DNA of 18,444 nt from Thermoplasmatales archaeon SW_10_69_26 (lineage in GTDB: Archaea > Thermoplasmatota > SW-10-69-26): NCBI GenBank assembly GCA_003009755.1, contig PXUB01000015.1, forward strand, positions 1 to 18,444, in the 5' to 3' direction. Positions 3,105 to 18,067 of this stretch are shown here, piece after piece. A program made the position numbers and the translations under genes. The notes beneath the pieces are model-generated. The model did no database searches. It saw only the letters and a list, made by a program, of their open reading frames with translations, and was not told the DNA's origin. Position 1 is the stretch's first letter. Every line of letters starts with the position of its first letter.

Positions 3105-4010
3105 GTGGCAGCTCGCGTTCGCGTCCTTGCCCTTGCTCTGCTGTTGGTGACCGTTCCGATGCTGGGTGCTCTCGCTCACTCACCCAGCGACGATGCCGGT
3201 AGTGGCGACGATGCCCCAGATGAGCGGTCCGATGCGGTGAACGCCAGACCCGGGAGCTTCGTCGGCAACCTCACACCGGGATCGTACGAGGACGACCATC
3301 ACGACGACTACAGCAGCTACGAGGACGACGACATCACCCGCGACCACGACTGGTACCGGGTGAACACGACCGAGGACGCCCAAGAACCGAGCTGCACGCG
3401 GGCCGACTACGAGCTCGACAACCAGCCGAACAACGACACCCGCATCCACATCGAGCAGCCCGCCCTCGAGGAGGCGCACATCGACCAGCGCGTGACCGGC
3501 GGCGGCACGATGGCGATGGTCGGACCCAGCGCCTCCGGCGCGCTCGTCGGCCTGTCCTCCGCCGACACGCCGCACGTCACCGGCTACGAGGTCACCACGG
3601 ACGTGATCACGCTTTCCGACGTCCAGGAGACCGGCGGCAGCGGCGGCACCGCGGACACGATCCCCGCTCCGTGCTTCGGTGGCACGCTCGAGGACTGGGA
3701 GGTCCACGAGTGGACCTTCGAGGCCAACGCCGGCGAGGTGCTGTGGGTCACCTTCGGCACCGAGCTCGACCGCAGGGACGACCTCGTGCTCGAGGCGCCC
3801 GACGGGACCGAGATCGGCTCGATCACCTCCGGCGACGAGGTCGCCATCGGCGGCGCCGTGCTCGACGAGGCGGGCAACTACACGATCAGCGCCGAGGCCG
3901 GCGATAGCGGCCTGCTGACGATCACATCCTCCACCTACATCGCGGGGTTCATGCTCGAAGGTCCCGAGGAGGAAGAGGAGGACCCCTGCAGCCCGAACTG
4001 CATGAGCTGA
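3105..4010 (+). CDS. Secreted acidic protein with probable PPC-like beta-sandwich repeat(s)
   Basis: Signal peptide MAARVRVLALALLLVTVPMLGALA; DDAGSGDDAPD motif; GNL..DHDWYRV and GTL..HEWTFEANAGEVLWVTF..LVLEAPDG..GNYTISAE resemble pre-peptidase C-terminal (PPC) domains. Confidence 0.7.
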   Translation: MAARVRVLALALLLVTVPMLGALAHSPSDDAGSGDDAPDERSDAVNARPGSFVGNLTPGSYEDDHHDDYSSYEDDDITRDHDWYRVNTTEDAQEPSCTRADYELDNQPNNDTRIHIEQPALEEAHIDQRVTGGGTMAMVGPSASGALVGLSSADTPHVTGYEVTTDVITLSDVQETGGSGGTADTIPAPCFGGTLEDWEVHEWTFEANAGEVLWVTFGTELDRRDDLVLEAPDGTEIGSITSGDEVAIGGAVLDEAGNYTISAEAGDSGLLTITSSTYIAGFMLEGPEEEEEDPCSPNCMS

Positions 4011-4107
4011 GCCCATGCCATCCCCACAGTGTCCGATCGCGCGAGGACCCGCCGCCCACAGGGAGCGCGACCCACCTCTGCATCCTGCTGGTTTGGACGT
4101 AAGTGTC

Positions 4108-4176
4108 TTTAAGCCGTGCCGCCCGGCTGGAGGTCCAGAAAGTGATGGCCTGGCCCACAGACGGACGAGGAGGTGA
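4108..4176 (+). promoter_or_regulatory. TATA box and strong SD for the kinase-FHA operon
   Basis: TTTAAG at 4108-4113; GAGGAGGTGA at 4167-4176. Confidence 0.6.
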
Positions 4177-4182
4177 ACAACG

Positions 4183-6258
4183 ATCGCACCCCTTCCATTC
4201 CTAGACATCTCCGCCCTCTGGTCGATCGTCAGCGGCATCGCGGTCTTCCTCCTCGGCTGCTACGCGCTCCGAGGCGGGAGGGCGCGGCCACGGGGAGGGC
4301 TCGCGTTCGGGCTCTTCGCCATCGCCTGGGGCGTCCAAGTCACCGCCATCAACGCTGCCTCTATCGTCGAGCCCGCCATGGCCGAGCAGCTCTACCTCGT
4401 CTCCCTCGTGGGGCTCTTCTTCCTCCCCTACTTCCTCATCGAGTTCTCCGCCTCCCAGACGGACCGGAGGGGAAGGACGACGGGATGGTACCTGCTCAGA
4501 GGTGGCGCGGCCCTCGTCGCGTTCGTCTCGGCGGGGACCCTCGTGCTGGCCCCCGATCTCCTCTTCCAGGGCATCAACCTGGCCAACGGAACCGTATACC
4601 CCCTCTGGGGCCCTCTCTTCGCCCCGCTCATCAACCTCCCCTTGTTCACCGCCTTCGGGCTCGCGGTCATCGGCCTCCAGTCCGGGTTGAGCTCCTCGCC
4701 GACCGAACGGACCGAGAGGGTTCAACTCTACATGCTGGGGGGCTTGGCCCTCTACGTCGCCTACACCGCCTCGTACAACCTCCTCCTGTTCTCTAACCTG
4801 ACGCTCTCGCTTGGGCTCTCATTCGAGCGGGTGCTGTACGTCCTCATCTTCGCCTTCCTTTCCGCCCTCGTCCTCGCGGTCGGTTGGAAGAACCTTCGTC
4901 GATGGGGGAAGGGCGATGGCCACGGTCAGCGGCAGGCGCGATGGTTGGCTCTCGCCTTCCTGGTGCCCTTCGCCAGCGCCATCCTCGTTCGGGGTGTGCG
5001 AGCCTTGGGCGCCGTCGGCTTCAACCTCGTCGGCGTCTTCCGTTTGGCCGGCGTCGGCGTCATCACGTACGGCTTCGCCCGTCGCCGCCTGTACGACCTT
5101 CCGCAGCGCGTTCGGCGGACGGGCGCCACCGCGACCGGCTCGGTCAGCGCCCTGGCGGCCGGCGGCACCGCGTTCGGGTTCGCCAGCGTCCTCTCCGGCG
5201 GCCTCGCCTTGCCGATCCTGGCGGGCGTGGCCGCGACGGGCGCGACGGCGATGCCGGCGCTGAAGTGGGCCCGTCGGCTGTTCTCGGCCGGGGACGAGGA
5301 CAACCCGGTCGACGAGGCCGAGGACCTGTACGAGCAGAAGATCGAGACCTACCGCGCCGCGCTCGAGGACGCGATGGCGCGGGACACGATCGAGGAGGAC
5401 GAGCCGTTCCTGACGGGCCTGCGCGAGCGGTTCGGCATCTCCGACGAGGAGGATCGCATCCTGCGCTACTACGCCCGCAAGTCGACCGTTCCGCGCCGGG
5501 AGGGCGACCCGGACACGGCTTACGAGCGGTTGCGGATCCTCGGCGAGGGCGGCGCGGGGCGCACGTGGCTGGCCCGCGACCGTTCGCGCGATCGACTCGC
5601 CGTGGTGAAGGAGCCCTTGGAGAAATGGCACAGCGAACCCTCCGTGCTCGAGGCGGCCCGCCGCGAGGCGCGCTTGGCCGCCAAGGTCCGCCACCCGAAC
5701 GTCGTCGAGGTCGAGGAGGTGCTCGAGGACGAGGGCCGCCCCCTGCTCGTCATGGAGCACGTCACCGGCGGCTCGCTGGCGGACAAGCTTCGCCAGAGGG
5801 GCACGCTGGAGCCCCGCCAGGCGCTGAAGCTTGGCTACGATCTGGCCCAGGGCCTGCAAGCCATCCACGAGGCCGGCATCGTGCACCGCGATCTGACGCC
5901 CGACAACGTCCTGTTGACCGAGGACGGGCGGGCCCGCATCACGGACTTCGGGCTCGCGCGGACCCAGGACAGCTCGGGCACCCAGCTCCTCGAAGACGAG
6001 GCCGGCACGAAGGGCTACCAGGCCCCCGAGGCGGCCCACGGCAGCGACGATCCGACCGTGGACGTGTACGGGTTGGCCGCGATCATGCACACGTGCCTGT
6101 ACGGCAGCCCGCCGGTCCAAGGCACGATCCAGGTCGAGACCGAGGTCCCCCGCGAGCTGCAGGAGGCCATCGACCGCGGCCTGCAACCCGATCCCGACGA
6201 GCGGTACCCGAACGCGGCGACCTTCGCCGACCGGCTGGAGACGCTGGTGGAACGATGA
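4183..6258 (+). CDS. Multi-pass membrane Hanks-type serine/threonine protein kinase
   Basis: C-terminal kinase: LGEGGAG, VVK, alphaC REAR, HPNVV, HRDLTPDN, DFGLAR, GTKGYQAPE, DVYGLA, PDERY. About 11 hydrophobic segments lie N-terminal. The frame is open from 4177 and has two extra TM helices before the first ATG (4378). The start at ATC 4183 is inferred from SD spacing. Confidence 0.9.
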   Translation: MAPLPFLDISALWSIVSGIAVFLLGCYALRGGRARPRGGLAFGLFAIAWGVQVTAINAASIVEPAMAEQLYLVSLVGLFFLPYFLIEFSASQTDRRGRTTGWYLLRGGAALVAFVSAGTLVLAPDLLFQGINLANGTVYPLWGPLFAPLINLPLFTAFGLAVIGLQSGLSSSPTERTERVQLYMLGGLALYVAYTASYNLLLFSNLTLSLGLSFERVLYVLIFAFLSALVLAVGWKNLRRWGKGDGHGQRQARWLALAFLVPFASAILVRGVRALGAVGFNLVGVFRLAGVGVITYGFARRRLYDLPQRVRRTGATATGSVSALAAGGTAFGFASVLSGGLALPILAGVAATGATAMPALKWARRLFSAGDEDNPVDEAEDLYEQKIETYRAALEDAMARDTIEEDEPFLTGLRERFGISDEEDRILRYYARKSTVPRREGDPDTAYERLRILGEGGAGRTWLARDRSRDRLAVVKEPLEKWHSEPSVLEAARREARLAAKVRHPNVVEVEEVLEDEGRPLLVMEHVTGGSLADKLRQRGTLEPRQALKLGYDLAQGLQAIHEAGIVHRDLTPDNVLLTEDGRARITDFGLARTQDSSGTQLLEDEAGTKGYQAPEAAHGSDDPTVDVYGLAAIMHTCLYGSPPVQGTIQVETEVPRELQEAIDRGLQPDPDERYPNAATFADRLETLVER

Positions 6259-6965
6259 CCGAGGTGCAACGAGAGGAGGACGACGACCTGCAGGAGCTCT
6301 CCGAGGTCCTCTTCGCGCTCGCGAACGCCCGCCGGCTGCGCATCCTGCACGAGGTCGACGAGCCGGAGACACGCACCGAGCTGGCCGACCGCATGGACGT
6401 CTCCCGGCAGGCGATCAGCAAGCACATCGACAAGCTGCTCGAGCACGGGTTCGTCCGCCAGTTGCCGGGATGGCGGGAGTCCGGCCCGGTGGACGAGTTC
6501 CAGGTCGATCCCAAGCGCCTGTACGCCATCGGCAAGGAGATCGCCGACCTCGGCCACCTCGAACCGAAGGGGGGCCCCGAGCTAACCGACGCCCAGGCCA
6601 CGGAGATCCGCGCCGACAGCATCGATGACGACAGCCCGACCTCGAAGGGCAGCTCGGCCCAAGCCCACCTGCTGGTGCTGGACGGGCCCGAGGAGGGCGA
6701 CCGCTTCGTGCTCGCGGGCGAGCAGGATCGCTGGACGATCGGCCGCGAGGAGGATCGGGATCTGTGCCTGGACCACGACCCATACATCTCCGGCAGCCAG
6801 TTCGAGATCCAGGCCACGCCGGACGGTCACGCGGTCGTCGACGTCTACAGCTCCAACGGTACCTACGTGAACTTCGGCCAGCTCCCGGAAGGGGGGCGCA
6901 CGGCCCTCGAGCCCGGGGACGTGGTCCGCATCGGGCGCACCTCGCTCGTCTACCAGCGGCGCTGA
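6255..6965 (+). CDS. ArsR-like winged-HTH + FHA domain transcriptional regulator (236 aa)
   Basis: ATGA overlap with the kinase stop. HTH: LFALANARRLRIL..TRTELADRMDVSRQAISKHIDKLLEHGFV. FHA: WTIGR..DPYIS..DVYSSNGTYVN..LEPGDVVRIGRTSL. Confidence 0.9.
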   Translation: MTEVQREEDDDLQELSEVLFALANARRLRILHEVDEPETRTELADRMDVSRQAISKHIDKLLEHGFVRQLPGWRESGPVDEFQVDPKRLYAIGKEIADLGHLEPKGGPELTDAQATEIRADSIDDDSPTSKGSSAQAHLLVLDGPEEGDRFVLAGEQDRWTIGREEDRDLCLDHDPYISGSQFEIQATPDGHAVVDVYSSNGTYVNFGQLPEGGRTALEPGDVVRIGRTSLVYQRR

Positions 6966-6992: not shown

Positions 6993-8366
6993 TCAGGCGT
7001 GGCCGGTGTCCGCGAGCACGCGATCCACGAGCTGGGGCGCCATGCCCAGGTAGTTCGTCGGATCGAGCCACGCGTCGAGTTGATCGGCGTCCACGACCTT
7101 GTCGACCTCGTCGAAAGCGAGCAACGCCTGGCGGAAGCTGGCTCGATCCTCGGCGTCGAGCGAGGCCTGGCGGACGACCTCGTGAGCGCGTTGCCGGGGC
7201 ACGCCACGCTCGGCGAGCTGGACGACGACGCGCTCGGCCGTGATCGTCGGCGTCAGCTCGAGGTTGTCCTTCATGCGCTCTGGGTCGACCTGCAGATCGC
7301 GGAACACGGTCGCCGAGACCGACAGGGCCTCGTGCGTGAGCGTGAACAGGTGGGGCAGGATGAAGCGCTCGCTGCTGGAGTTGGCCAGGTCGCGCTCGTG
7401 CCACTGGACGGCGTTCGCGTAGGCCGGATCGAGGAAAGCCCGCGCCGTGCGGGCGAGCCCGCACACCTTCTCCGAGCTGATCGGGTTCTTCTTCTGGGCC
7501 ATCGTGGAGGATCCGACCTGGCTGTCCTCCTCGAAGCCCTCGGCCGCCTCGCCGATCTCGTTGCGCTGCAGGTTGCGGATCTCGGTCGCGAACTTCTCCA
7601 GGCTCGTCACGATGTTGACGAGCTGGGCGAACAGCTCGTTGTAGCGGTCGCGGGCGACGATCTGGGTCGGGGCGATCTCCATCTCGAGGTCGAGGATGTC
7701 GCCGACGGCTTCCTCGATGGCGAAGGCGTCCTCGCCGAACCCGGCGCCGGTGCCGACGGCGCCCATCATCTTGCCGACGACCTCCTCCTCGCGGGCCTGC
7801 TGTAGCCGTTCGCGGTGGCGGTGGATCTCCTGCAGGTAGGTCGCCATCTTGTAGCCGAAGGTCGTCGGGACGGCGTGCTGGCCGTGCGTGCGCCCGGGGC
7901 AGGCGGTGTCCCGGTGCTCGCGCGCCAGCTCGGCCAGCGCCTCCTCGAGCCGGTCGAGCTCCTCCTCGATCAGGGCGAGGCCCTCGCGCATCATCAACGC
8001 GTTCGCGGTGTCGATGATGTCGTAGCTGGTCGCCCCCAGGTGCACGTGGGACCCGGCATCGCCCTCACAGGCTTCGCTGAGGGCTTCGACGACGGCCATG
8101 AGATCGTGCTTGATCTCGGCCTCGATCTCCTTGACGCGCTCGGGGTCGACGTGGTCGAGGGTCGCCTTCGCCTCGATCTCCTCGGCGGCCTCGTCCGGCA
8201 CGGTGCCCACGCGGGCGTGAGCTCGGGCGAGAGCTGCCTCCACCTCGAGCAGACGGGCGAGCTTGCCTTCTTCGCTGAACGCGGCCTTGATCTCGGGGCC
8301 CCCGTAGCGGAAGTCCAGGGGGCAAAGCGGCTCTGGCGATGGGCTCGTCCGTGGGGCCTGGCCCAT
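6993..8366 (-). CDS. purB: Adenylosuccinate lyase
   Basis: CPLDFRYG, KHDLMAVV, HLGATSYDIIDT, GRTHGQHAVPTTFG, GAVGT, signature GSSTMAQKKNP and HERDLANSSSER. Start placed at ATG 8366 rather than 8570. Confidence 0.95.
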   Translation of the reverse strand: MGQAPRTSPSPEPLCPLDFRYGGPEIKAAFSEEGKLARLLEVEAALARAHARVGTVPDEAAEEIEAKATLDHVDPERVKEIEAEIKHDLMAVVEALSEACEGDAGSHVHLGATSYDIIDTANALMMREGLALIEEELDRLEEALAELAREHRDTACPGRTHGQHAVPTTFGYKMATYLQEIHRHRERLQQAREEEVVGKMMGAVGTGAGFGEDAFAIEEAVGDILDLEMEIAPTQIVARDRYNELFAQLVNIVTSLEKFATEIRNLQRNEIGEAAEGFEEDSQVGSSTMAQKKNPISSEKVCGLARTARAFLDPAYANAVQWHERDLANSSSERFILPHLFTLTHEALSVSATVFRDLQVDPERMKDNLELTPTITAERVVVQLAERGVPRQRAHEVVRQASLDAEDRASFRQALLAFDEVDKVVDADQLDAWLDPTNYLGMAPQLVDRVLADTGHA

Positions 8367-8400
8367 GGAGGCGGCACACCCTGACCCTTTTTCTTTCTTC

Positions 8401-8715
8401 GGGGCCTCGACTTCGCCCGAGGGGGACGGAAAACGGTCGCGAAGCATCGGGCCGAAGCGTGGCTTCGGCCGCTCCCGAGACCGCCAAGCGCCGTCGGTCT
8501 CGGGAGGAAACCCCCTTGCCAGCGACCCAGGCCCCAACGTCCCGGACCGTGGCCGCTGGTGCACCTTCACGCGGGGCTATCTCCACCTGACGGGCGACCC
8601 CGAGTGGTGAGGGGCCACGGCCTCGACGGGGCGAGAGGGGAACGGTCGTGAGGATCCGCTGGCAAGCTTCACCCCATCCCTGGAACGCGACCGACCCCGA
8701 GGGAGAACCGGCCCC
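8401..8715. ncRNA. Candidate structured RNA (nested inverted repeats, about 315 nt), family unassigned
   Basis: Perfect helices: 8401-8406/8710-8715, 8434-8441/8686-8693, 8450-8458/8462-8470, 8472-8483/8495-8506, 8515-8524/8657-8666 and 8547-8554/8613-8620, all mutually compatible. No convincing ORF. Confidence 0.4.
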
Positions 8716-8840: not shown

Positions 8841-9890
8841 TTGGGTCAAGCGCTCACGCTGCTGTTCGCCGTGCTGTTGTTGGGGGGTGCCCCCGTCGCC
8901 GACGAGACCGGCGCCGACGACGAGCCGATGGTCCCCACGGAGACCGACGCCTCCGTCGTCGAGACCGAGAGCAACGCGAGCCCGACGCAGGGCCACGGTA
9001 GCCTCGCGGCGGGCGAGGCCGACACCGCCGATCCCAACGCCACGGCCACCGCCAACGGTTCCACGTCAGGTGAGCACCTCAGCGCGGAGGCCGACGCGGT
9101 CGAGGGCGACGTGGAGGTGACCGCTTCACCGATCGAGGGGACGGTCCGCGTGTCCGATCGACGCGTCGTCGAGATGACATACACGCCCCCGAGCGCCGAA
9201 GAGGCCATGCCCGAGGTCCCCCAAACGGCCCCCGACGACGAGAACGTGGAAGAGACCGACGCCGAGGCCGCCTCCACGGAGGACGAGCAGGCCGGCTCCA
9301 GCGAGGCCGTCTGGGCGCTGGCCCCCGCGACCGGCTTGGCCGCAGCCGCCGCCGTCACGCAGACGACGCCCGTCGGCCGCTGGCTGCGCCGCGTGCTCTC
9401 CACCGCGCCGCTGGCGCCGCTGTACTCGCGGATCTCCAGCGACGAGGTGCTCGACCACGAGACGCGGGAAGCGATCTACGAGCTGCTCGAGAGGGAGGCT
9501 GGGCTCAGTCTCGAGGCGATCGCGGACGAGCTGGATCTGGCGCGCTCGACGGCCCGCCACCACGTCCGCAAGCTCGAGGAGACCGGCATGATCGAGCACG
9601 CTCGCATCGGTCGGGCCCGCGTCCACCACGTGGTCGGCGAGCGCAAGCGCGCCCTGCACAGCCACCTGTTGGCGAACGAGACGCGGGCCGAGGTGTTCGA
9701 GGCGATCGAGGATCGCCCGCTCACGATCACCGAGATCGCGGAGGCGATCGACGCCAACCCCGGCTCGGTGCACTTCCACCTCGACAAGCTCGCGGACCGC
9801 AACCTCGTCCAGACCACCGACGAGGAAGGCCGCCGGTACCTGGCGACGGACCTGGCCGCGGCGCCCGACGCCGTCGTCGACCCGGCGTGA
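8841..9890 (+). CDS. Exported/membrane-tethered protein with two C-terminal winged-HTH domains
   Basis: TTG start with SD; signal peptide QALTLLFAVLLLGGAPVA; acidic low-complexity region; Ala-rich hydrophobic stretch then GRWLRR; PLYSRISSDEVLDHETREAIY. HTH1 LSLEAIADELDLARSTARHHVRKLE and HTH2 LTITEIAEAIDANPGSVHFHLDKL. Confidence 0.85.
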   Translation: MGQALTLLFAVLLLGGAPVADETGADDEPMVPTETDASVVETESNASPTQGHGSLAAGEADTADPNATATANGSTSGEHLSAEADAVEGDVEVTASPIEGTVRVSDRRVVEMTYTPPSAEEAMPEVPQTAPDDENVEETDAEAASTEDEQAGSSEAVWALAPATGLAAAAAVTQTTPVGRWLRRVLSTAPLAPLYSRISSDEVLDHETREAIYELLEREAGLSLEAIADELDLARSTARHHVRKLEETGMIEHARIGRARVHHVVGERKRALHSHLLANETRAEVFEAIEDRPLTITEIAEAIDANPGSVHFHLDKLADRNLVQTTDEEGRRYLATDLAAAPDAVVDPA

Positions 9891-13967: not shown

Positions 13968-14936
13968 CTACACGAGACCGAAGCTGTCGAGCAGCGTCGT
14001 GATCCCGAAGACGAGGAAGACCACCGAGGTGCCGAGCATCCAGAGAGCGCCGTCGATCCGGTGCTCGCGGAGCTCGCCTTCCGAGCCGTCGCTGACGACG
14101 AACGTGCCGGTGCCGTCGTGTTCTCGCATGACGAGATTGCGCTCGTTCCGGGCGTGGTCGGTCCCCTCGCGGCGGTGGGCGGCTCCCCAGACGTAGACGG
14201 GCTCGTCCACGGCGATGACGCTCTCCTCGACGACCCGGTCCCGGTCGGCGGGCTGGGAGAGGTAGGTGGCCAGGTTGTCGTCGATGCCGACCGTGCTCGC
14301 CTGGAAGACCTCCGCGAGGTCCTCCGCCTGGGCCTCCTCGTATCGCGTTCCCTCGCGGAACCCCTCCCGAGCCCAGGCGACGAGCGGCTCGGGCGGTTCC
14401 TCGCCGGCCTCGATCCGTGTCCTCTGCTCGGTGTCCACGACGAGCTTGGCCTCCTGCGGGTCGACCCGCACGGCCCCGGTCCCGTCGTCGATGCGGAGGG
14501 GGACCTCGTCGCGGGTCTGGAGGATTCGGTTGGCACCGCCCTCGTCGCTCTTCGAGATCTCCTTGATCTCGATCTCGTAGAGGACGGCGCTCGTCCCGGT
14601 GAGCGGTGACGTCAGCGGCTCGTCGACGGGCTGGGCCTCCCCGTGGATCTCGGCGGCCCCGACGGCGAGGCTTCGAACGGTGCTCGTCGGCGTGTTCCGG
14701 GCGAGCTGGAACTCGCGGTACTGCCGCCACCCGAAGTAGAAGATCATCGCGCCCAGCGCGATCACGAACAGGACGCCGAGCAGCGGGCTGTCGGGCCCGG
14801 CGCTGACGGGGTTCATGCCCGGCAGGGCGCCCGTGATCACAAGGCTGGCGGCGACGACGAGGACGAGCGCGAGGGCGATCTTGGCTCGCGTCGCCAGCGA
14901 TCCCGACGAGTCGGCGTGCTCGTGCTCAGGCACCAT
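13968..14936 (-). CDS. GIDE-domain membrane protein (paralog 2), no RING
   Basis: 2 N-terminal TM and 1 C-terminal TM; RNTPTSTVRSLAVGAAEIHG, PLTSPLTG, VPLRIDDGTGAVRVDP, EESVIAVDEPVYVWG, FVVSDGSEGEL. Starts 1 nt after the upstream stop. Confidence 0.82.
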   Translation of the reverse strand: MVPEHEHADSSGSLATRAKIALALVLVVAASLVITGALPGMNPVSAGPDSPLLGVLFVIALGAMIFYFGWRQYREFQLARNTPTSTVRSLAVGAAEIHGEAQPVDEPLTSPLTGTSAVLYEIEIKEISKSDEGGANRILQTRDEVPLRIDDGTGAVRVDPQEAKLVVDTEQRTRIEAGEEPPEPLVAWAREGFREGTRYEEAQAEDLAEVFQASTVGIDDNLATYLSQPADRDRVVEESVIAVDEPVYVWGAAHRREGTDHARNERNLVMREHDGTGTFVVSDGSEGELREHRIDGALWMLGTSVVFLVFGITTLLDSFGLV

Positions 14937-14937
14937 C

Positions 14938-15297
14938 TCACCCCCTCACCGTGAAGGTGGCGGTCGGCGTCGGCTGGATCCCCTCACCGTCCACCGTCGT
15001 CGACGAGGCCTGGTACTCGTGACTGGTCGAGGCCGCGTCCGTGGGGTCGATGGGCTCGACCTCGACGGGGATCGAGCCCTGGTCCACGTCGGGGTGGGTG
15101 CCGACGATCAGGTCCTCGGTGAGGTTCGCGTCGTCGGCGAACGCAGTGGACGTGCCTGCTCGCAGCTCGTCGGTGTCCGTGAGCACGTGGTCCGAGGAGG
15201 TCAGATCGACCTCGGGGACCTCCTCGCTGTCGGAGGCACAGCCCACAGTCAACGTCATCGCGGCTACGACGAACAGGAGGACGGGGCGGTCGTGCAT
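14938..15297 (-). CDS. Small lipoprotein (119 aa), unknown function
   Basis: MHDRPVLLFVVAAMTLTVGC lipobox; acidic and beta-rich; coupled to the downstream GIDE gene. Confidence 0.72.
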   Translation of the reverse strand: MHDRPVLLFVVAAMTLTVGCASDSEEVPEVDLTSSDHVLTDTDELRAGTSTAFADDANLTEDLIVGTHPDVDQGSIPVEVEPIDPTDAASTSHEYQASSTTVDGEGIQPTPTATFTVRG

Positions 15298-15372
15298 GGG
15301 AGGCGCTCCCGGACCGTGCGACGGAGCCCGGGCGCTAAAGCGTTCCGACCTCAGCTCGCCGTCGTCCGAACC

Positions 15373-16236
15373 TCACACGATGCCGATCCAGACGAGGCTG
15401 CCGACGATGCCGTAGGGCAGGCAGACGAGCGCGAGGGCGAGGACGACGGCGGCCTCGGCGAGCTGGTCCTCGAGCAGCTCGCCCTCGGATTGGTCGGAGA
15501 CGATGAACGTCTCGGTGCCGCTGTGCTCGCGGACGACCAGGTTGCGCTCGTTCTCGGTCGACGCGGCGTCCTCGCGGCGCTGGGCGCCGCCGAAGACGTA
15601 GGCGGATTCGCCGTCCTCGAGCACGCGCTCCTGCAGCTTGCGGTCGTACCGGGAGGTGGAGGTCAGGTGCCGGCTGTCGATCCCGTGCTGGTTGGCCCAC
15701 TCGCGGACCGGCTTGGGCGGCAGCTCGCCGTCGTCGACGTCGATGCTGGTCTCGCGCTCGATCTCGAGCTGGGCGTCGTCGGGATCGATCCGGACCTTGC
15801 CGGTCCCGTCGTCGAGGCGGAAGGGGACGTGTTCGCTCGTGTAGAACACCGTCTCCCAGTCCGAGTCGTCGTCCCCGTCGGGCCGGTACTCCCTGACGCG
15901 CAGCTGATACATGCAGGCGTCCTGCTGGGTCAGCGGCGAGGTGAGCGGTTCCTCGACCGGGGCGGCCTCACCATTCACCTCGACGGCGCCGACGGGCATG
16001 CTGCGGATCGTGCTGGTCGGCGTGTTGCGGATCAGCTGGGCGTTCTTGAACCGCCCCCAGCCGCCGTAGAGGGCGAACCCGCCGAACACGAGGCCGAAGA
16101 AGGCGATCGCGCCGTGGTTGGTGCCGGCGTCGCGCATCATCGCGGGCAACGGGTACACCAGCGCCAGGGCGACGGCGAAGGCTAGGCCGATCTTCGCGTA
16201 CAGCGTCCAGGGGTAGTCGGTGCCCGCCTCGGCCAT
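15373..16236 (-). CDS. GIDE-domain membrane protein (paralog 1), no RING
   Basis: LIRNTPTSTIRSMPVGAVEVNG, PLTSPLT, VPFRLDDGTGKVRIDP, ERVLEDGESAYVFG, FIVSDQSEGEL; 2+1 TM; SD GGTGAT upstream. Confidence 0.85.
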   Translation of the reverse strand: MAEAGTDYPWTLYAKIGLAFAVALALVYPLPAMMRDAGTNHGAIAFFGLVFGGFALYGGWGRFKNAQLIRNTPTSTIRSMPVGAVEVNGEAAPVEEPLTSPLTQQDACMYQLRVREYRPDGDDDSDWETVFYTSEHVPFRLDDGTGKVRIDPDDAQLEIERETSIDVDDGELPPKPVREWANQHGIDSRHLTSTSRYDRKLQERVLEDGESAYVFGGAQRREDAASTENERNLVVREHSGTETFIVSDQSEGELLEDQLAEAAVVLALALVCLPYGIVGSLVWIGIV

Positions 16237-16248
16237 GCGATCACCACG

Positions 16249-17403
16249 CTACTCGAGGGCCAGGCCGTTGGCGAACAGCGTACCGTCGGCGATCGCCATC
16301 GTCGAGCTGCCCGTGCGGTCGTCGAGGGACCACAGCTCCTTGCCTGTCTCCGCGTCGTGGGCGTGGATTCCGTCGCCCTTGACGTACACGATGCCGTCGG
16401 CCACGGCGGGCACGTCGCCGGGATGCTCGTCGCTCCACTCCTCCTCGCCCGTCTGGGCGTCGAGGGCGCGCAGGTGGGGGGCGCCGACGTAGACGAGTCC
16501 GTCGGCGACGGCGGGCGTGCTCTCGAGGTTGCTGTCGGTCTCGAGTGTCCACTGCTCCTCGCCGGTCTCCGCGTCCACGGCGTAGAGATTGCCGTCCTGG
16601 CTGGTGGCGTAGACCATGCCCTCGGCCACGGCGACGTCGCCGTGCATCCACGACCCGGGCTCCTCGTAGGTCCAGAGCTCGTCGCCTGTCTCCGCGTCGA
16701 GGGCGGAGACCGCCTCGGCCCGGCCGGCGGTGTAGACGGTGTCGTCGACGACGGCCGGGGTCGAGCGGACGGCGCCGCCGGTGTCGTAGGGCCACTGCTC
16801 GTCGCCGGTCTCGGCGTCGAAGGCGTACAGGGTGTCGTCGTCGCTGCCGACGTACACGTTGCCGTGGGCGACCGTGGGGGAGACGAGGATGCGCCTGTCG
16901 GTCTCCGCCGTCCAGGCCTGATCGCCGTTCTCCGCGTGGAGGGCATAGACGGCGCCGTCCGTGTCGCCGAAGAAGACCTTGTCCTCGCCGACGGCCGGCG
17001 CCGAGCGGACGTTCACGTACTCGCCGATGCCGTCGCCGTCGGTGAAGTTCCACTGGACCTCGCCGTCGTCGGAGTTGAGCGCGAAGACGCCGTCGCTGTG
17101 GGTGGCAACCACGAGGCCGTCGGCGACGACGGGTCTGTACCAGGTGTACTCGGTGGACCACAGCTCGTCGGCCGCCTCCCCGGGCCCGGTCTCGTCCTCG
17201 GCGTGGCCGGTGTTGGCCCCGTCCTGGCCGAGCATCGGCCAGCCGTCGTGGCTGCCGCGGTCGACGGTCACGCCGGGACCGGCGGGATCTGAGGCGTCAC
17301 CGGCCTCGTCTCCGGAGGCTGGCTCCTCCCCAGGGGAGGCGCATCCGGCGACCATCGTCGCAACCGCGACCACGCCAACCAGAAGGACGACGCTCCGTCG
17401 CAT
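16249..17403 (-). CDS. PQQ-binding-like beta-propeller repeat lipoprotein (BamB-like fold)
   Basis: MRRSVVLLVGVVAVATMVAGC from ATG 17403; WPMLGQDGANTG; about 7 repeats of S(T)PAVxDGxVYxxxxxxxLYAxDAETGxExW. Confidence 0.9.
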   Translation of the reverse strand: MRRSVVLLVGVVAVATMVAGCASPGEEPASGDEAGDASDPAGPGVTVDRGSHDGWPMLGQDGANTGHAEDETGPGEAADELWSTEYTWYRPVVADGLVVATHSDGVFALNSDDGEVQWNFTDGDGIGEYVNVRSAPAVGEDKVFFGDTDGAVYALHAENGDQAWTAETDRRILVSPTVAHGNVYVGSDDDTLYAFDAETGDEQWPYDTGGAVRSTPAVVDDTVYTAGRAEAVSALDAETGDELWTYEEPGSWMHGDVAVAEGMVYATSQDGNLYAVDAETGEEQWTLETDSNLESTPAVADGLVYVGAPHLRALDAQTGEEEWSDEHPGDVPAVADGIVYVKGDGIHAHDAETGKELWSLDDRTGSSTMAIADGTLFANGLALE

Positions 17404-17488
17404 GTCGGCTGGAAACCAAGCGAGGGTTTGGCTTTTTCGATGGTCGTTGGGAGAGGCTAGGTCTGCGTCGAGCTTTCCCACCCGACGC

Positions 17489-18067
17489 TTAGGAACCGAA
17501 AGCGTCGCCGACGTCGACGTCCTGCAGCTCGGACTCGTCGGCTTCGAAGAGGTCGCGAGCCTGGTAGTTCATCAGGCCCGCCACGATGTTGTAGGGGATC
17601 TGGTTGATCCGGATGTTGTAGGTGTTGACGCTCTCGTTGTAGAACTCGCGCCGGTCGGCGATCTGCTCCTCGAGCGCCGAGATCCGTTCCTGGAGCTGCT
17701 GGAAGCTGTCCTGGGCTTTCAGATCCGGGTAGTCCTCGGCGCGGGCGAAGAGGTTGGCCAGGGCCCCCTCGAGCTGGGCGTCGGCGTTGGAGGCCTCGTC
17801 GGGGTTGTCGGCCTGGCGGACCCGTTCGCGGGCCTCGGTGACCTCCTGGAGGACGCGCTCCTCGTAGTCCATGTACTGCTCGACCGTGTCGATGAGCTTG
17901 TCGAGCTCGTCGGCGCGCTGCTTGCGGAGCACGTCGATGTTGCTCCACGCCCGGTCGATGTTGCGGTTCAGCCGGACCAGGCCGTTGTAGACCATCACCG
18001 CGTAGACGACGACCAGCAACCCGACCAGGCCGCCGACGACGGTGAGAGCGATCGTGTGGACGCTCAT
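17489..18067 (-). CDS. lemA: LemA family protein
   Basis: N-terminal TM; YNGLVRL, AWSNIDVLRKQRADEL, YMDYE, AEDYPDLKA, EEQIADRREFYNESVNTYNIRI..P.NIVA; SD GGAGGT. Confidence 0.95.
   Translation of the reverse strand: MSVHTIALTVVGGLVGLLVVVYAVMVYNGLVRLNRNIDRAWSNIDVLRKQRADELDKLIDTVEQYMDYEERVLQEVTEARERVRQADNPDEASNADAQLEGALANLFARAEDYPDLKAQDSFQQLQERISALEEQIADRREFYNESVNTYNIRINQIPYNIVAGLMNYQARDLFEADESELQDVDVGDAFGS

What the first reader, a model, noticed from the sequence alone, without database searches (positions are those of the whole stretch)
4183..6965. Receptor-like membrane Ser/Thr kinase coupled to an HTH-FHA transcription factor: a phosphothreonine 'two-component' module in an archaeon
Seen: a roughly 11-TM protein ending in a complete Hanks kinase, whose stop overlaps (ATGA) the start of an ArsR-like wHTH + FHA protein; both lie behind one TATA box. 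Known: FHA domains bind pThr. Kinase to FHA-regulator pairs exist in Actinobacteria (PknH/EmbR), and Sulfolobus uses the FHA protein ArnA with kinases for archaellum control. I know of no characterised archaeal polytopic receptor kinase with a cognate DNA-binding FHA regulator. Inference: the membrane domain senses a signal, the kinase autophosphorylates (activation loop RTQDSSGTQLL..GT), then docks and phosphorylates the regulator, which controls nearby genes.
Basis: partly seen in the sequence, partly recalled or inferred. Interest (0 to 1): 0.85.

Follow-up and report, generated by a model that had tools for sequence, protein, structure and literature searches.

The report
Membrane kinase paired with FHA regulator
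An uncultured salt-crust archaeon encodes a many-helix membrane protein kinase directly followed by a DNA-binding protein that carries a phosphothreonine-reading domain; the same pairing recurs many times in its relatives, so it looks like a little-studied counterpart of bacterial two-component signalling.

Summary
Bases 4183-6258 encode a 691-aa protein. It has 11 predicted membrane helices, a conserved three-helix linker and a Hanks kinase domain (Pfam E 9e-44). Its TGA overlaps the ATG of a 236-aa ArsR-type wHTH + FHA protein (6255-6965).

- **Organism:** an uncultured Thermoplasmatota archaeon.
- **Orthologous pairing:** 14 of 15 related genome loci keep the full-length kinase beside the regulator.
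- **Own genome:** all 5 Hanks kinases lie beside 5 of the 7 HTH-FHA paralogs. The two paralogs without a Hanks kinase have lost the pThr-binding Arg, Ser and Asn.
- **Class-wide (21 genomes):** 78 of 108 listed HTH-FHA genes have a kinase within 6 kb, and partner sequences co-vary.
- **Candidate phospho-acceptor:** one Thr (T116) in the variable interdomain linker is conserved, in 27 of 27 orthologues and 88 of 114 family members.
- **Third gene:** a secreted two-domain CxPxC protein (3105-4010) precedes the kinase in the relatives examined.

Caveats for this copy: the start position holds ATC, not ATG, and other assemblies agree. The catalytic-loop Lys is Thr (HRDLTPDN). No operator was found in the window. 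Nothing is shown biochemically.

Verdict: a real, conserved signalling cassette and a new variant of the kinase-to-FHA-regulator theme (PknH/EmbR, ArnA, GarA).

The parts
3105..4010 (+). Gene for a 301-aa secreted or membrane-anchored protein. It has an N-terminal hydrophobic signal, two repeats beginning DAGSGxDA(G/P)D with a DxDW(Y/F) motif, four invariant Cys and a C-terminal CxPxC (PCSPNC). It is the likely extracellular partner of the kinase.
   Evidence: GTG 3105 lies behind TAGGAGG. GC3 is 0.89. A homologous gene lies 2-35 nt upstream of the kinase in L001, L002, L003, L006, L009, L011, L012, L013 (cut) and L015, and 411 nt upstream in L005. Alignment A4 has C97, C190, C295, P297 and C299 invariant in 10 of 10 sequences. 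No Pfam or NCBIfam family matches. The AF2 model is all-beta but of low confidence (pLDDT 62). The best Foldseek row is the ColG tandem collagen-binding domains, 5iku, E 1.9e-5 with TM only 0.25-0.31.
4108..4113 (+). TTTAAG, a TATA-like box about 70 nt upstream of the kinase start.
   Evidence: Read. Function not tested. The 172-nt gap to the upstream gene is longer than in most relatives.
4168..4175 (+). GGAGGTGA, a Shine-Dalgarno-like sequence 7 nt upstream of ATC 4183.
   Evidence: Relatives have similar purine-rich stretches before their ATG or GTG.
4183..6258 (+). Receptor Ser/Thr kinase gene (691 codons plus TGA). Its first codon position holds ATC.
   Evidence: Contigs of three runs from another study cover 4183-4185 with no other letter, and no run shows an insertion or deletion in 4050-6300. 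The public gene call P0040 starts at ATG 4378 and lacks 65 conserved residues.
4183..5280 (+). Membrane domain, residues 1-366, with 11 predicted transmembrane helices and an outside beta-hairpin at residues 128-142.
   Evidence: AF2 model. No Pfam family matches at E up to 5. Foldseek gives no PDB match at E<=0.001. VIA-align's best Z is 12.5 to 7TM receptor bundles, which is borderline for helical proteins. Invariant residues S17, R35, G38, F42, W49, W102, R176, G284 and R287 come from A2.
5305..5487 (+). Conserved cytoplasmic three-helix linker, residues 375-435 (YRAALE...FL..LRERF...), between the last membrane helix and the kinase.
   Evidence: Helices 375-399, 407-417 and 421-435. Y390, R391, A392, A393, E395, F409, L410, L413 and R414 are invariant in A2. 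No Pfam family matches. Many paralogous kinases match the A6 profile from positions 9-70, which include this part.
5521..6243 (+). Hanks-type protein kinase domain, residues 447-687.
   Evidence: Pfam PF00069, E 9e-44. K476, D570, N575, D588 (DFG), P615 and E616 (APE) are conserved.
5896..5898 (+). Codon ACG = Thr572, at the position of the catalytic-loop Lys (HRDLTPDN).
   Evidence: Every module kinase whose loop was read, apart from this one, has Lys there. One low-depth contig of run X5 reads A at 5897, which gives AAG = Lys.
5980..5982 (+). Codon for Thr600, the invariant activation-loop threonine and candidate autophosphorylation and FHA-docking site.
   Evidence: T600 is invariant in 25 of 25 sequences of A2. 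Phosphorylation is inferred.
6255..6965 (+). wHTH-FHA regulator gene (236 codons plus stop). Its ATG overlaps the kinase TGA.
6318..6458 (+). ArsR-type winged helix-turn-helix, residues 22-68.
   Evidence: PF12840 HTH_20, E 1.1e-12. R27, R51, Q52 and H57 are invariant in A1. In 114 family members they are present in 113, 104, 94 and 112.
6600..6602 (+). Codon for Thr116 in the variable interdomain linker, the candidate phospho-acceptor.
   Evidence: Invariant in 27 of 27 orthologues. Thr sits in the same column in 88 of 114 family members and within 6 columns in 111 of 114. Phosphorylation is inferred.
6732..6935 (+). FHA domain, residues 160-227, with the pThr-binding residues G163-R164, S179 and N201.
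   Evidence: PF00498, E 6.1e-14. Conservation is 114, 113, 111 and 113 of 114. The closest solved relatives are OdhI and GarA, E 4.9e-14 to 4e-13.

Best explanation
This is a three-gene signalling cassette of an uncultured Thermoplasmatota archaeon. The public runs that hold it are labelled halite metagenome.

Components (shown by sequence and comparison):
- A secreted two-domain CxPxC protein (3105-4010).
- An 11-helix membrane kinase (4183-6258).
- A wHTH-FHA transcription factor (6255-6965), translationally coupled to the kinase.

Proposed mechanism (inferred):
1. The membrane domain, probably together with the secreted protein, senses an outside or membrane signal and switches the cytoplasmic Hanks kinase.
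2. The kinase autophosphorylates on its activation loop (invariant Thr600).
3. The regulator's FHA domain docks on that pThr.
4. The kinase then phosphorylates the conserved linker Thr116 of the regulator.
5. The FHA domain reads pThr116, within one chain or between two chains, as in the GarA/OdhI switch. This changes how the wHTH dimer binds DNA.

The cassette is one of a paralogous set of such kinase/HTH-FHA pairs. The set is a phosphothreonine analogue of sensor kinase plus response regulator, and it exists beside classical His-Asp systems in the same genome.
For: Domains and residues:
- Pkinase, HTH_20 and FHA all score far above their cut-offs.
- The pThr-binding Gly-Arg, Ser and Asn are kept in 113, 111 and 113 of 114 family members.
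- K476, D570, N575, DFG and APE are kept in the kinase, and Thr600 is invariant.

Pairing of orthologues:
- 14 of 15 genome-contig loci found with the regulator profile have the full-length kinase adjacent. In 13 it lies upstream on the same strand, and in L007 downstream. L010 has none within 6 kb.
- L029, from a metagenome, has the pairing too.

Pairing of paralogues in the window's own genome:
- 5 Pkinase matches over the cut-off and 5 FHA matches lie pairwise on the same five contigs.
- All five partners are full-length HTH-FHA proteins.
- All five kinases have predicted membrane segments.
- Of the 7 HTH-FHA paralogues, the 5 beside Hanks kinases keep Arg, Ser and Asn-Gly. The other 2 (contigs C25 and C8) have lost all three.

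Class-wide and co-variation:
- In 21 genomes of the class, 78 of 108 listed HTH-FHA matches have a Pkinase match within 6 kb, 73 within 3 kb and 52 within 1 kb.
- Across 25 modules, distances between regulators and between their kinases correlate (Pearson 0.54 over 300 pairs). None of 2000 shuffles of kinase labels within genomes reached that value. 15 of 25 modules have the same nearest module for both proteins.

Phospho-acceptor and switch:
- Thr116 is invariant in 27 of 27 orthologues, in a linker that is otherwise variable. It occupies the same column in 88 of 114 family members.
- The closest solved FHA relatives are OdhI and GarA. That their upstream Thr is phosphorylated and bound by their own FHA domain is recalled. 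The entry title 'Rv1827 pThr 22' appears.

Coupled expression:
- The ATGA overlap couples kinase and regulator.
- The secreted-protein gene lies 2-35 nt upstream of the kinase in nine related loci.

DNA target in relatives:
- A perfect 16-bp palindrome, GCAACC-N4-GGTTGC, flanks the cassette in L001, L003, L004, L015 and L029. Near-perfect copies lie 8-12 nt upstream of the TATA-like box of the secreted-protein gene in L001, L005, L006 and L009.
Against: - This copy has Thr572 where the kinase family has the catalytic-loop Lys. That this Lys contacts the gamma-phosphate is recalled, so activity may be reduced.
- The start position holds ATC. Either initiation is non-canonical, or the protein starts at Met66 without the first two helices.
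- No biochemical or expression evidence exists.
- The palindrome of the relatives is absent here. The window has only 3-mismatch copies, 13 found against 8.55 expected. The whole genome has no perfect copy and 8 one-mismatch copies, none on the window's contig.
- Three related loci (L010, L027, L028) carry a 49-50% identical HTH-FHA gene beside a TrmB-type regulator and an SNF2 helicase, with no kinase in the flanks.
- 30 of 108 listed HTH-FHA matches have no kinase match on their contig. Several of these lie close to the start of their contig.
- The rank correlation in the co-variation test is weak (Spearman 0.14), so the signal comes from close module pairs. Linked genes also share history without necessarily interacting.
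- No PP2C_2 phosphatase was found in the genome, which is 95% complete.
Confidence: 0.6

Rival explanations
1. Membrane sequestration without phosphotransfer. The FHA domain only tethers the regulator to the autophosphorylated kinase. This keeps it off (or releases it to) DNA, as membrane anchors do for some transcription factors. Thr116 would then be structural or phosphorylated by another kinase.
For: It rests on the same pairing, FHA-residue and Thr600 evidence as the main reading. FHA docking on a kinase activation loop has precedent for PknB and GarA: the title of reference 32 appears in passages of PMC6213207.
Against: It does not explain why a single Thr is conserved in an otherwise free linker (27 of 27; 88 of 114). 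It also does not explain why the nearest solved FHA relatives are the self-binding switches OdhI and GarA.
Confidence: 0.2
2. This particular copy is a decaying or rewired module. The kinase would be a weak enzyme or a pseudokinase (Lys572 to Thr) whose start codon has mutated (ATG to ATC). The family-level mechanism would then not apply to this window.
For: Thr is at the catalytic-loop Lys position only here and in P0042. Every other module kinase whose loop was read has Lys. ATC sits at the start position. One homologue, P0043, has a clearly degenerate loop, HGNLRPEH with DLG. No operator was found.
Against: The 692-codon frame is intact, with GC3 of 0.83-0.92. All invariant residues of the first 65 codons are kept. 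Three assemblies from another study show the same ATC and none shows an insertion or deletion. Thr is shared with P0042, which is only 65% identical overall, so it has persisted under selection. A Shine-Dalgarno-like GGAGGTGA lies 7 nt upstream of ATC.
Confidence: 0.12
3. The kinase is an anti-virus defence kinase (PD-T4-6 or MADS Mad6-like), and the HTH-FHA protein is its regulator or effector.
For: The kinase domain matches PADLOC models mad6 (E 5.7e-58) and PD-T4-6 (E 6e-56), and NCBIfam antiphage_MADS6 at 147.9 bits.
Against: These matches cover the generic kinase domain only, and 147.9 bits is far below the curated cut-off of 460. The cassette lies in conserved synteny with adenylosuccinate lyase in L002-L004. 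It recurs as 5 paralogous modules with different membrane sensor domains. It has a secreted partner. No other defence gene lies beside it.
Confidence: 0.03

Closest known systems
PknH / EmbR of Mycobacterium tuberculosis
   Same: A membrane Hanks kinase phosphorylates a DNA-binding regulator that carries a C-terminal FHA domain, and the FHA domain mediates the phosphorylation. This comes from passages and the reference list of PMC6213207. The EmbR FHA domain matches the family profile at E 3e-6 (2fez). That the two genes are neighbours is recalled.
   Different: EmbR has an OmpR-type wHTH plus a BTAD domain, and it is phosphorylated by several kinases. Here the DNA-binding domain is ArsR-type HTH_20 and there is no BTAD. 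The kinase has 11 membrane helices rather than a single pass (the single pass is recalled). The pair is one of 5 per genome, and a secreted third component is conserved.
ArnA (ST0829 / Saci ArnA) with kinases ST1565, ArnC and ArnD in Sulfolobales
   Same: This is the only studied archaeal case: an FHA protein phosphorylated by a Hanks-type kinase, reported to bind a promoter in a phosphorylation-dependent way. The interaction needs the FHA Arg, Ser, Thr and Asn. Source: passages of PMC5007285. PMC10470591, PMC6509490 and PMC12852372 were seen only as listing and abstract starts.
   Different: ArnA has a zinc finger, not a wHTH, and works with the vWA protein ArnB. The regulator here has HTH_20 and a single Cys, so no zinc finger. 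ArnA is not described there as operonic with a polytopic receptor kinase. The lineage here is Thermoplasmatota.
GarA / OdhI FHA phospho-switches of Actinobacteria
   Same: These are the closest solved relatives of the FHA domain (E 4.9e-14 to 4e-13). Like them, the regulator has a conserved Thr shortly upstream of the FHA domain. That their phosphorylated Thr is bound by their own FHA domain is recalled.
   Different: GarA and OdhI regulate metabolic enzymes and have no DNA-binding domain. Their ETTS motif (recalled) is not present here. Here the switch, if real, is fused to a wHTH.
Classical two-component systems (HisKA/HATPase sensor plus REC response regulator)
   Same: The logic is the same: a membrane sensor kinase gene beside a gene for a DNA-binding partner with a conserved phospho-acceptor, expanded as paralogous pairs that are inherited together.
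   Different: There is no HisKA, HATPase or REC domain in either protein. The chemistry is Ser/Thr phosphorylation read by an FHA domain. The genome also holds 17 REC matches, so the two systems coexist.

Membership tests
Hanks-type (eukaryotic-like) Ser/Thr protein kinase, Pfam PF00069 | Profile match above the curated cut-off | tested here: met
   150.3 bits against a cut-off of 31.7, E 9e-44, residues 447-687.
Hanks-type (eukaryotic-like) Ser/Thr protein kinase, Pfam PF00069 | Gly-rich loop, ATP-binding Lys, HRD Asp, catalytic Asn, DFG and APE (motif names recalled) | tested here: met
   GEGGAG, K476, D570, N575, D588-F-G and A614-P-E are present in the sequence. K476, D588, P615 and E616 are invariant, and D570 and N575 are conserved in at least 90% of A2.
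Hanks-type (eukaryotic-like) Ser/Thr protein kinase, Pfam PF00069 | Catalytic-loop Lys (HRDxKxxN) | tested here: not met
   The loop reads HRDLTPDN, with Thr572 encoded by ACG at 5896-5898. Only P0042 shares it, and the other module kinases have Lys. The fold family still applies, but catalytic competence is open.
FHA domain, Pfam PF00498 | Profile match above the cut-off, with the pThr-binding Gly-Arg, Ser and Asn | tested here: met
   52.6 bits against 20.7. G163-R164, S179 and N201 are present and are conserved in 113, 111 and 113 of 114 family members.
FHA domain, Pfam PF00498 | His of the SxxH motif (recalled) | tested here: not met
   It is Gln182 in this protein. In the family the position is His in 68 and Asn in 44 of 114. 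That this residue is structural rather than phosphate-binding is recalled.
ArsR/SmtB-type winged HTH (Pfam HTH_20, HTH_5) | Profile match | tested here: met
   HTH_20 scores 48.1 bits against 27, and HTH_5 scores 23.1 against 22. Solved ArsR-family chains match at E 8.5e-9.
ArsR/SmtB-type winged HTH (Pfam HTH_20, HTH_5) | Metal-sensing sites of the metalloregulators | not tested
   The protein has a single Cys, C171, inside the FHA part. No site analysis was done.
EmbR / SARP-FHA regulators | OmpR-type wHTH plus a bacterial transcriptional activation domain (BTAD) before the FHA | tested here: not met
   No Trans_reg_C or BTAD match appears among the 16 Pfam families at E<=0.01. Only the FHA part matches EmbR (2fez, query 125-233).
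ArnA family (zinc finger + FHA) | N-terminal zinc finger | tested here: not met
   The N-terminal domain is HTH_20 and has no Cys or His cluster.
His-Asp two-component system | HisKA/HATPase_c in the sensor and REC in the regulator | tested here: not met
   Neither protein matches any of these. The cassette works like such a system but is not a member.
HisKA_7TM (PF16927) membrane sensor domain | Profile match of the membrane part | tested here: inconclusive
   No Pfam match for residues 1-339 at E up to 5. The only lead is a language-model score of 0.85 (rank 5) to a cluster in which 80% of members carry this family. No solved structure of that family appeared in the fold searches.

The most novel reading that the evidence does not exclude
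A class of halophilic Thermoplasmatota runs a second, phosphothreonine-based 'two-component' network in parallel with its His-Asp systems. Each of up to about 19 receptor Hanks kinases per genome has its own dedicated wHTH-FHA response regulator. A conserved linker threonine would serve as the phospho-acceptor, the functional counterpart of the receiver aspartate. It would be read by the regulator's own FHA domain to switch DNA binding. Many modules would also carry a secreted co-sensor.
Probability: 0.4. Interest if true: 0.8.

Novelty: new variant of a known kind. Interest (0 to 1): 0.66.

Why it matters
Ser/Thr kinase signalling to transcription in archaea is known in detail only from the Sulfolobales archaellum network. 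In bacteria, Hanks kinases are usually described as few per genome and pleiotropic (abstract start of PMC4601284).

Here the genomics points to one-to-one, paralogously expanded sensor-regulator pairs. They have a defined candidate phospho-acceptor (Thr116), a defined reader (the FHA Arg, Ser and Asn) and a candidate operator in relatives. This gives a short list of point mutants and DNA probes that would test whether pThr/FHA chemistry can be organised like a two-component system.

The work also defines three protein parts with no family assignment: the 11-helix sensor domain, the three-helix juxtamembrane linker and the secreted CxPxC protein.

Tried and rejected
- **Complex prediction.** The kinase cytoplasmic part (A6) was folded with the regulator (A1). 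Score 0.00, 'no answer', so it says nothing either way.
- **Fold of the membrane domain.** Foldseek found no PDB match at E<=0.001. VIA-align's best Z was 12.5 to GPCR-like 7TM bundles, inside the range the tool calls common for helical bundles. No family was assigned.
- **Family searches.** Pfam at E up to 5 found nothing usable for the membrane part, the linker or the secreted protein. NCBIfam gave only matches below the cut-offs. The Atlas search gave leads under 0.9 only.
- **Secreted protein.** The model has pLDDT 62. Its best Foldseek row, the ColG collagen-binding domains, has a good E-value but TM of only 0.25-0.31, so it is a lead only.
- **Closer relatives for promoter footprinting.** The first metagenome scan found none. 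The second found nothing above 50% identity.
- **Operator in the window.** No dyad or k-mer is shared by all upstream regions. The GTAAC-N5-GGTTGC search with up to 2 mismatches gave 4 matches against 1.92 expected. The relatives' palindrome is at chance level in the window and in the genome.
- **Expression.** No RNA holder was listed.
- **Phosphatase.** No PP2C_2 match was found in the genome, which is 95% complete. Other phosphatase families were not searched.
- **Literature.** The terms HTH-FHA, FHA-HTH, wHTH-FHA and 'FHA domain-containing transcription' gave 0 papers. The five-term search gave 0 papers. Searches listed nothing on such pairs in Thermoplasmatota. The ESCRT preprint's FHA passages concern a different haloarchaeal FHA family. 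Supplements were closed and not consulted.
- **Frameshift idea.** I considered initiation at ATG 4145 (another frame) with a frameshift. I rejected it because no assembly shows an insertion or deletion.

Full report
**What is in the window.** The window is 70% GC. Real genes stand out by high GC at third codon positions. On the + strand one frame is open from 4177 to a TGA at 6256-6258, and translation from 4183 gives 691 residues. Pfam places a protein kinase domain at residues 447-687 (E 9e-44, 150.3 bits, cut-off 31.7). The next gene starts at ATG 6255, overlaps that TGA (ATGA) and encodes 236 residues. It carries HTH_20 at 22-68 (E 1.1e-12) and FHA at 160-227 (E 6.1e-14).

**Organism and setting.** Loci recovered with the regulator profile come from MAGs titled Thermoplasmatales, Thermoplasmatota or Methanobacteriota archaeon. 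One is titled Proteobacteria, but it carries an archaeal-type TrmB regulator. The stretch is held by runs whose records say halite metagenome. The genome has 2.8 Mb in 49 contigs and is 95% complete.

**Kinase anatomy.**
- An AlphaFold2 model of residues 1-446, built on 13 sequences, has mean pLDDT 83 and pTM 0.82. It shows eleven long helices between residues 6 and 366, a beta-hairpin at 128-142 and three cytoplasmic helices at 375-435.
- The basic loops (RGGRARPRGG, DRRGRT, TERTER, KNLRRWGK, ARRRLYDLPQRVRR, KWARRL) fall on alternate sides. This fits an N-terminus outside and the kinase inside.
- Neither Pfam nor fold search names the membrane domain. Foldseek has no match at E<=0.001. VIA-align's best Z is 12.5 to 7TM receptor bundles, which is borderline for helical proteins.
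- The three-helix linker (YRAALE...FL..LRERF) is invariant at nine positions in 25 homologues. Many paralogous kinases match the profile region that contains it. It also has no family.
- The kinase core keeps K476, D570, N575, DFG and APE, and Thr600 in the activation loop is invariant.
- One departure: the catalytic loop reads HRDLTPDN. The other module kinases read have Lys at that place, and only P0042 (65% identical) shares the Thr.
- One contig of run X5, at depth about 3, reads A at 5897, which would restore Lys. At that depth it may be an error.

**Start codon.**
- No ATG, GTG or TTG lies between the in-frame TGA at 4174 and ATG 4378.
- The 65 residues before Met66 carry the invariant residues of the first two helices (S17, G25, R35, G38, F42, W49).
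- Twelve homologues start within a few codons of the position that holds ATC 4183 here.
- GGAGGTGA lies 7 nt upstream.
- Contigs of runs X2, X3 and X5, from a different study than the possible source, cover 4183-4185 without another letter. No run shows an insertion or deletion between 4050 and 6300. ATC is therefore real.
- Initiation at ATC is the simplest reading. The public gene call (P0040, 626 aa) begins at ATG 4378.

**Regulator anatomy.**
- The family found by word search has 27 full-length members at 47-99% BLASTP identity, all with HTH_20 plus FHA.
- The exhaustive profile search finds 128 representatives at E<=1e-30. Of the 150 best, 113 are 205-300 residues long.
- In these 113 plus the window's protein, the phosphate-binding residues are almost invariant: G163 in 114, R164 in 113, S179 in 111 and N201 in 113 of 114.
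- The linker between the two domains varies in length and sequence except for one threonine. T116 is invariant in 27 of 27 orthologues. It is in the same column in 88 of 114 and within six columns in 111 of 114.
- The closest solved relatives of the FHA part are OdhI and GarA (E 4.9e-14 to 4e-13), ahead of EmbR (3e-6) and Rad53.

**Is the pairing conserved?**
- Orthologues: 14 of 15 genome loci have the full-length kinase (membrane part included) adjacent to the regulator gene. L010 has none within 6 kb.
- Metagenome loci with enough flank: L029 has the full-length kinase and L032 has a kinase domain beside a 34% identical relative. L027 and L028 have none, and these share L010's context of a TrmB regulator and an SNF2 helicase. 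L026, L030, L031 and L033 are too short to judge.
- Own genome: five Pkinase matches over the cut-off and five FHA matches lie pairwise on contigs C13, C1, C19, C12 and C43.
- A full six-frame search finds seven HTH-FHA paralogues.
- The five beside Hanks kinases keep Gly-Arg, Ser and Asn-Gly.
- The other two have lost all three. C8 lies just upstream of a GAF-PAS-HisKA-HATPase gene, and C25 lies beside hemerythrin and HTH_10 genes.
- All five kinases have membrane segments. One has a single pass behind PQQ and PKD domains.
- Class-wide: all 21 genomes of the window's class have HTH-FHA matches, and so do 11 further genomes of the phylum at E<=4e-28. Overall, 48 of 401 genomes match at E<=1e-10, and the weakest of these cover the FHA part only.
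- All 21 class genomes have 1 to 19 Pkinase matches.
- From the listed rows, 78 of 108 HTH-FHA matches have a Pkinase match within 6 kb, and 79 of 150 kinases have a listed HTH-FHA within 6 kb.
- Both figures are lower bounds. At most 7 HTH-FHA candidates per genome were scored, 16 and 6 rows were not listed, and many contigs are short.

**Do partners share history?**
- I took 25 modules from six genomes. I dropped G038:C12, whose FHA match was a fragment, and the second kinase on G018:C14.
- Pairwise distances of regulators and of kinase cores correlate (Pearson 0.54 over 300 pairs, and 0.66 over 45 within-genome pairs).
- Shuffling kinase labels within genomes reached these values in 0 and 1 of 2000 trials.
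- 15 of 25 modules have the same nearest module for both proteins.
- Spearman is only 0.14 and 0.21, so close modules carry the signal.
- This shows stable co-inheritance and co-duplication of pairs. By itself it does not show interaction.

**A third component.**
- The gene at 3105-4010 starts at GTG behind TAGGAGG. It encodes a signal-bearing 301-aa protein.
- Homologues lie directly upstream of the kinase in every related locus with enough upstream sequence that I examined (L001, L002, L003, L005, L006, L009, L011, L012, L013, L015). L008 has only an 88-aa ORF ending in the same CxPxC motif.
- Ten sequences share two DAGSGxDAGD...DxDW(Y/F) repeats and four invariant cysteines, including the C-terminal CxPxC.
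- No family matches. The model is poor, and its resemblance to tandem collagen-binding beta-sandwiches is only a lead.

**A candidate operator in relatives, not here.**
- GCAACC-N4-GGTTGC is perfect in L001, L003, L004, L015 and L029, and near-perfect in L001, L005, L006, L009 and L029. 90 of the 107 loci held at that time have no match to the 9-base core.
- The copies lie 8-12 nt upstream of the TATA-like box of the secreted-protein gene, or just after the regulator gene.
- The window and its genome lack the palindrome.
- The recognition helix differs here: SRQAISKH against mostly (S/T)RQSA(S/T)KH.

**Mechanism.**
- Shown: the domains, the residues, the translational coupling, and the conserved, co-inherited pairing.
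- Inferred: signal sensing by the membrane domain with the secreted protein; autophosphorylation at Thr600; FHA docking; phosphorylation of Thr116; and an FHA-pThr116 switch of the GarA/OdhI kind (recalled) acting on the wHTH.

**Comparison with what is known.**
- PknH/EmbR (passages of PMC6213207) and ArnA with its kinases (passages of PMC5007285) show the same principle. Their DNA-binding domains, partners and gene organisation differ.
- My searches found no paper on wHTH-FHA proteins or on such pairs in Thermoplasmatota.
- I therefore rate it a new variant of a known kind.

**Caveats.** Everything functional is inference. The window's own kinase is atypical in its catalytic loop and start codon. 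The census rests on partial listings.

Noticed in passing
window 4183-4185: The kinase gene has ATC where 12 homologues have ATG, GTG or TTG. A Shine-Dalgarno-like GGAGGTGA lies 7 nt upstream. The same letters appear in contigs of three runs from another study. The public gene call starts 65 codons later, at ATG 4378.
   Followed up: yes
window 5897: One low-depth contig of run X5 reads A instead of C. This turns Thr572 (ACG) into Lys (AAG), the canonical catalytic-loop residue. It is either a population variant or an error.
   Followed up: partly
L001:6701-6716, L003:4029-4044, L004:956-971, L015:2639-2654, L029:4998-5013 (near-perfect copies at L001:2910, L005:1475, L006:2733, L009:163): A 16-bp palindrome, GCAACC-N4-GGTTGC, flanks the cassette in related genomes, typically 8-12 nt upstream of a TATA-like box. 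It is absent from the window and its genome.
   Followed up: partly
G000 contig C8 15891-18788 (L107:5892-8789): An HTH-FHA paralogue has lost the pThr-binding Arg, Ser and Asn. It lies 46 nt upstream of a GAF-PAS-PAS-HisKA-HATPase histidine kinase gene and next to a CheB-CheR-PAS fusion gene. It may be an FHA-derived regulator recruited to a His kinase.
   Followed up: partly
G000 contig C19 (L017:5489-8674): The kinase frame stays open about 270 codons past its kinase domain, and it overlaps the convergent HTH-FHA gene by about 770 nt. That regulator's C-terminus departs from the family (GGGGGGRGSP...). This suggests a frame disruption or assembly slip at the shared 3' ends.
   Followed up: no
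window 8841-9890 (+): A protein with two ArsR-type wHTH domains (residues about 204-253 and 279-324) behind a roughly 200-aa N-terminal part without a family. It lies divergent from adenylosuccinate lyase (6993-8570, -). This synteny is kept in L002-L004.
   Followed up: no
window 13968-18067 (-): Two GIDE-domain proteins (13968-14936 and 15373-16236), a PQQ beta-propeller protein (16249-17481) and a LemA protein (17489-18067) lie in a row on the minus strand. Two ORFs without a family lie between and beside them.
   Followed up: no
L010 (JAJPHT010000029.1), L027, L028: A 49-50% identical HTH-FHA gene lies beside a TrmB-family regulator and an SNF2 helicase, with no kinase nearby. The record of L010 is titled Proteobacteria, although the context looks archaeal.
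   Followed up: partly
G000 contig C1 (L016:6066-9857): A 1263-aa receptor kinase with PQQ-propeller and PKD domains outside a single membrane pass. Its HTH-FHA partner lies about 1 kb away on the same strand, and an SRP54 gene lies next to the kinase.
   Followed up: no
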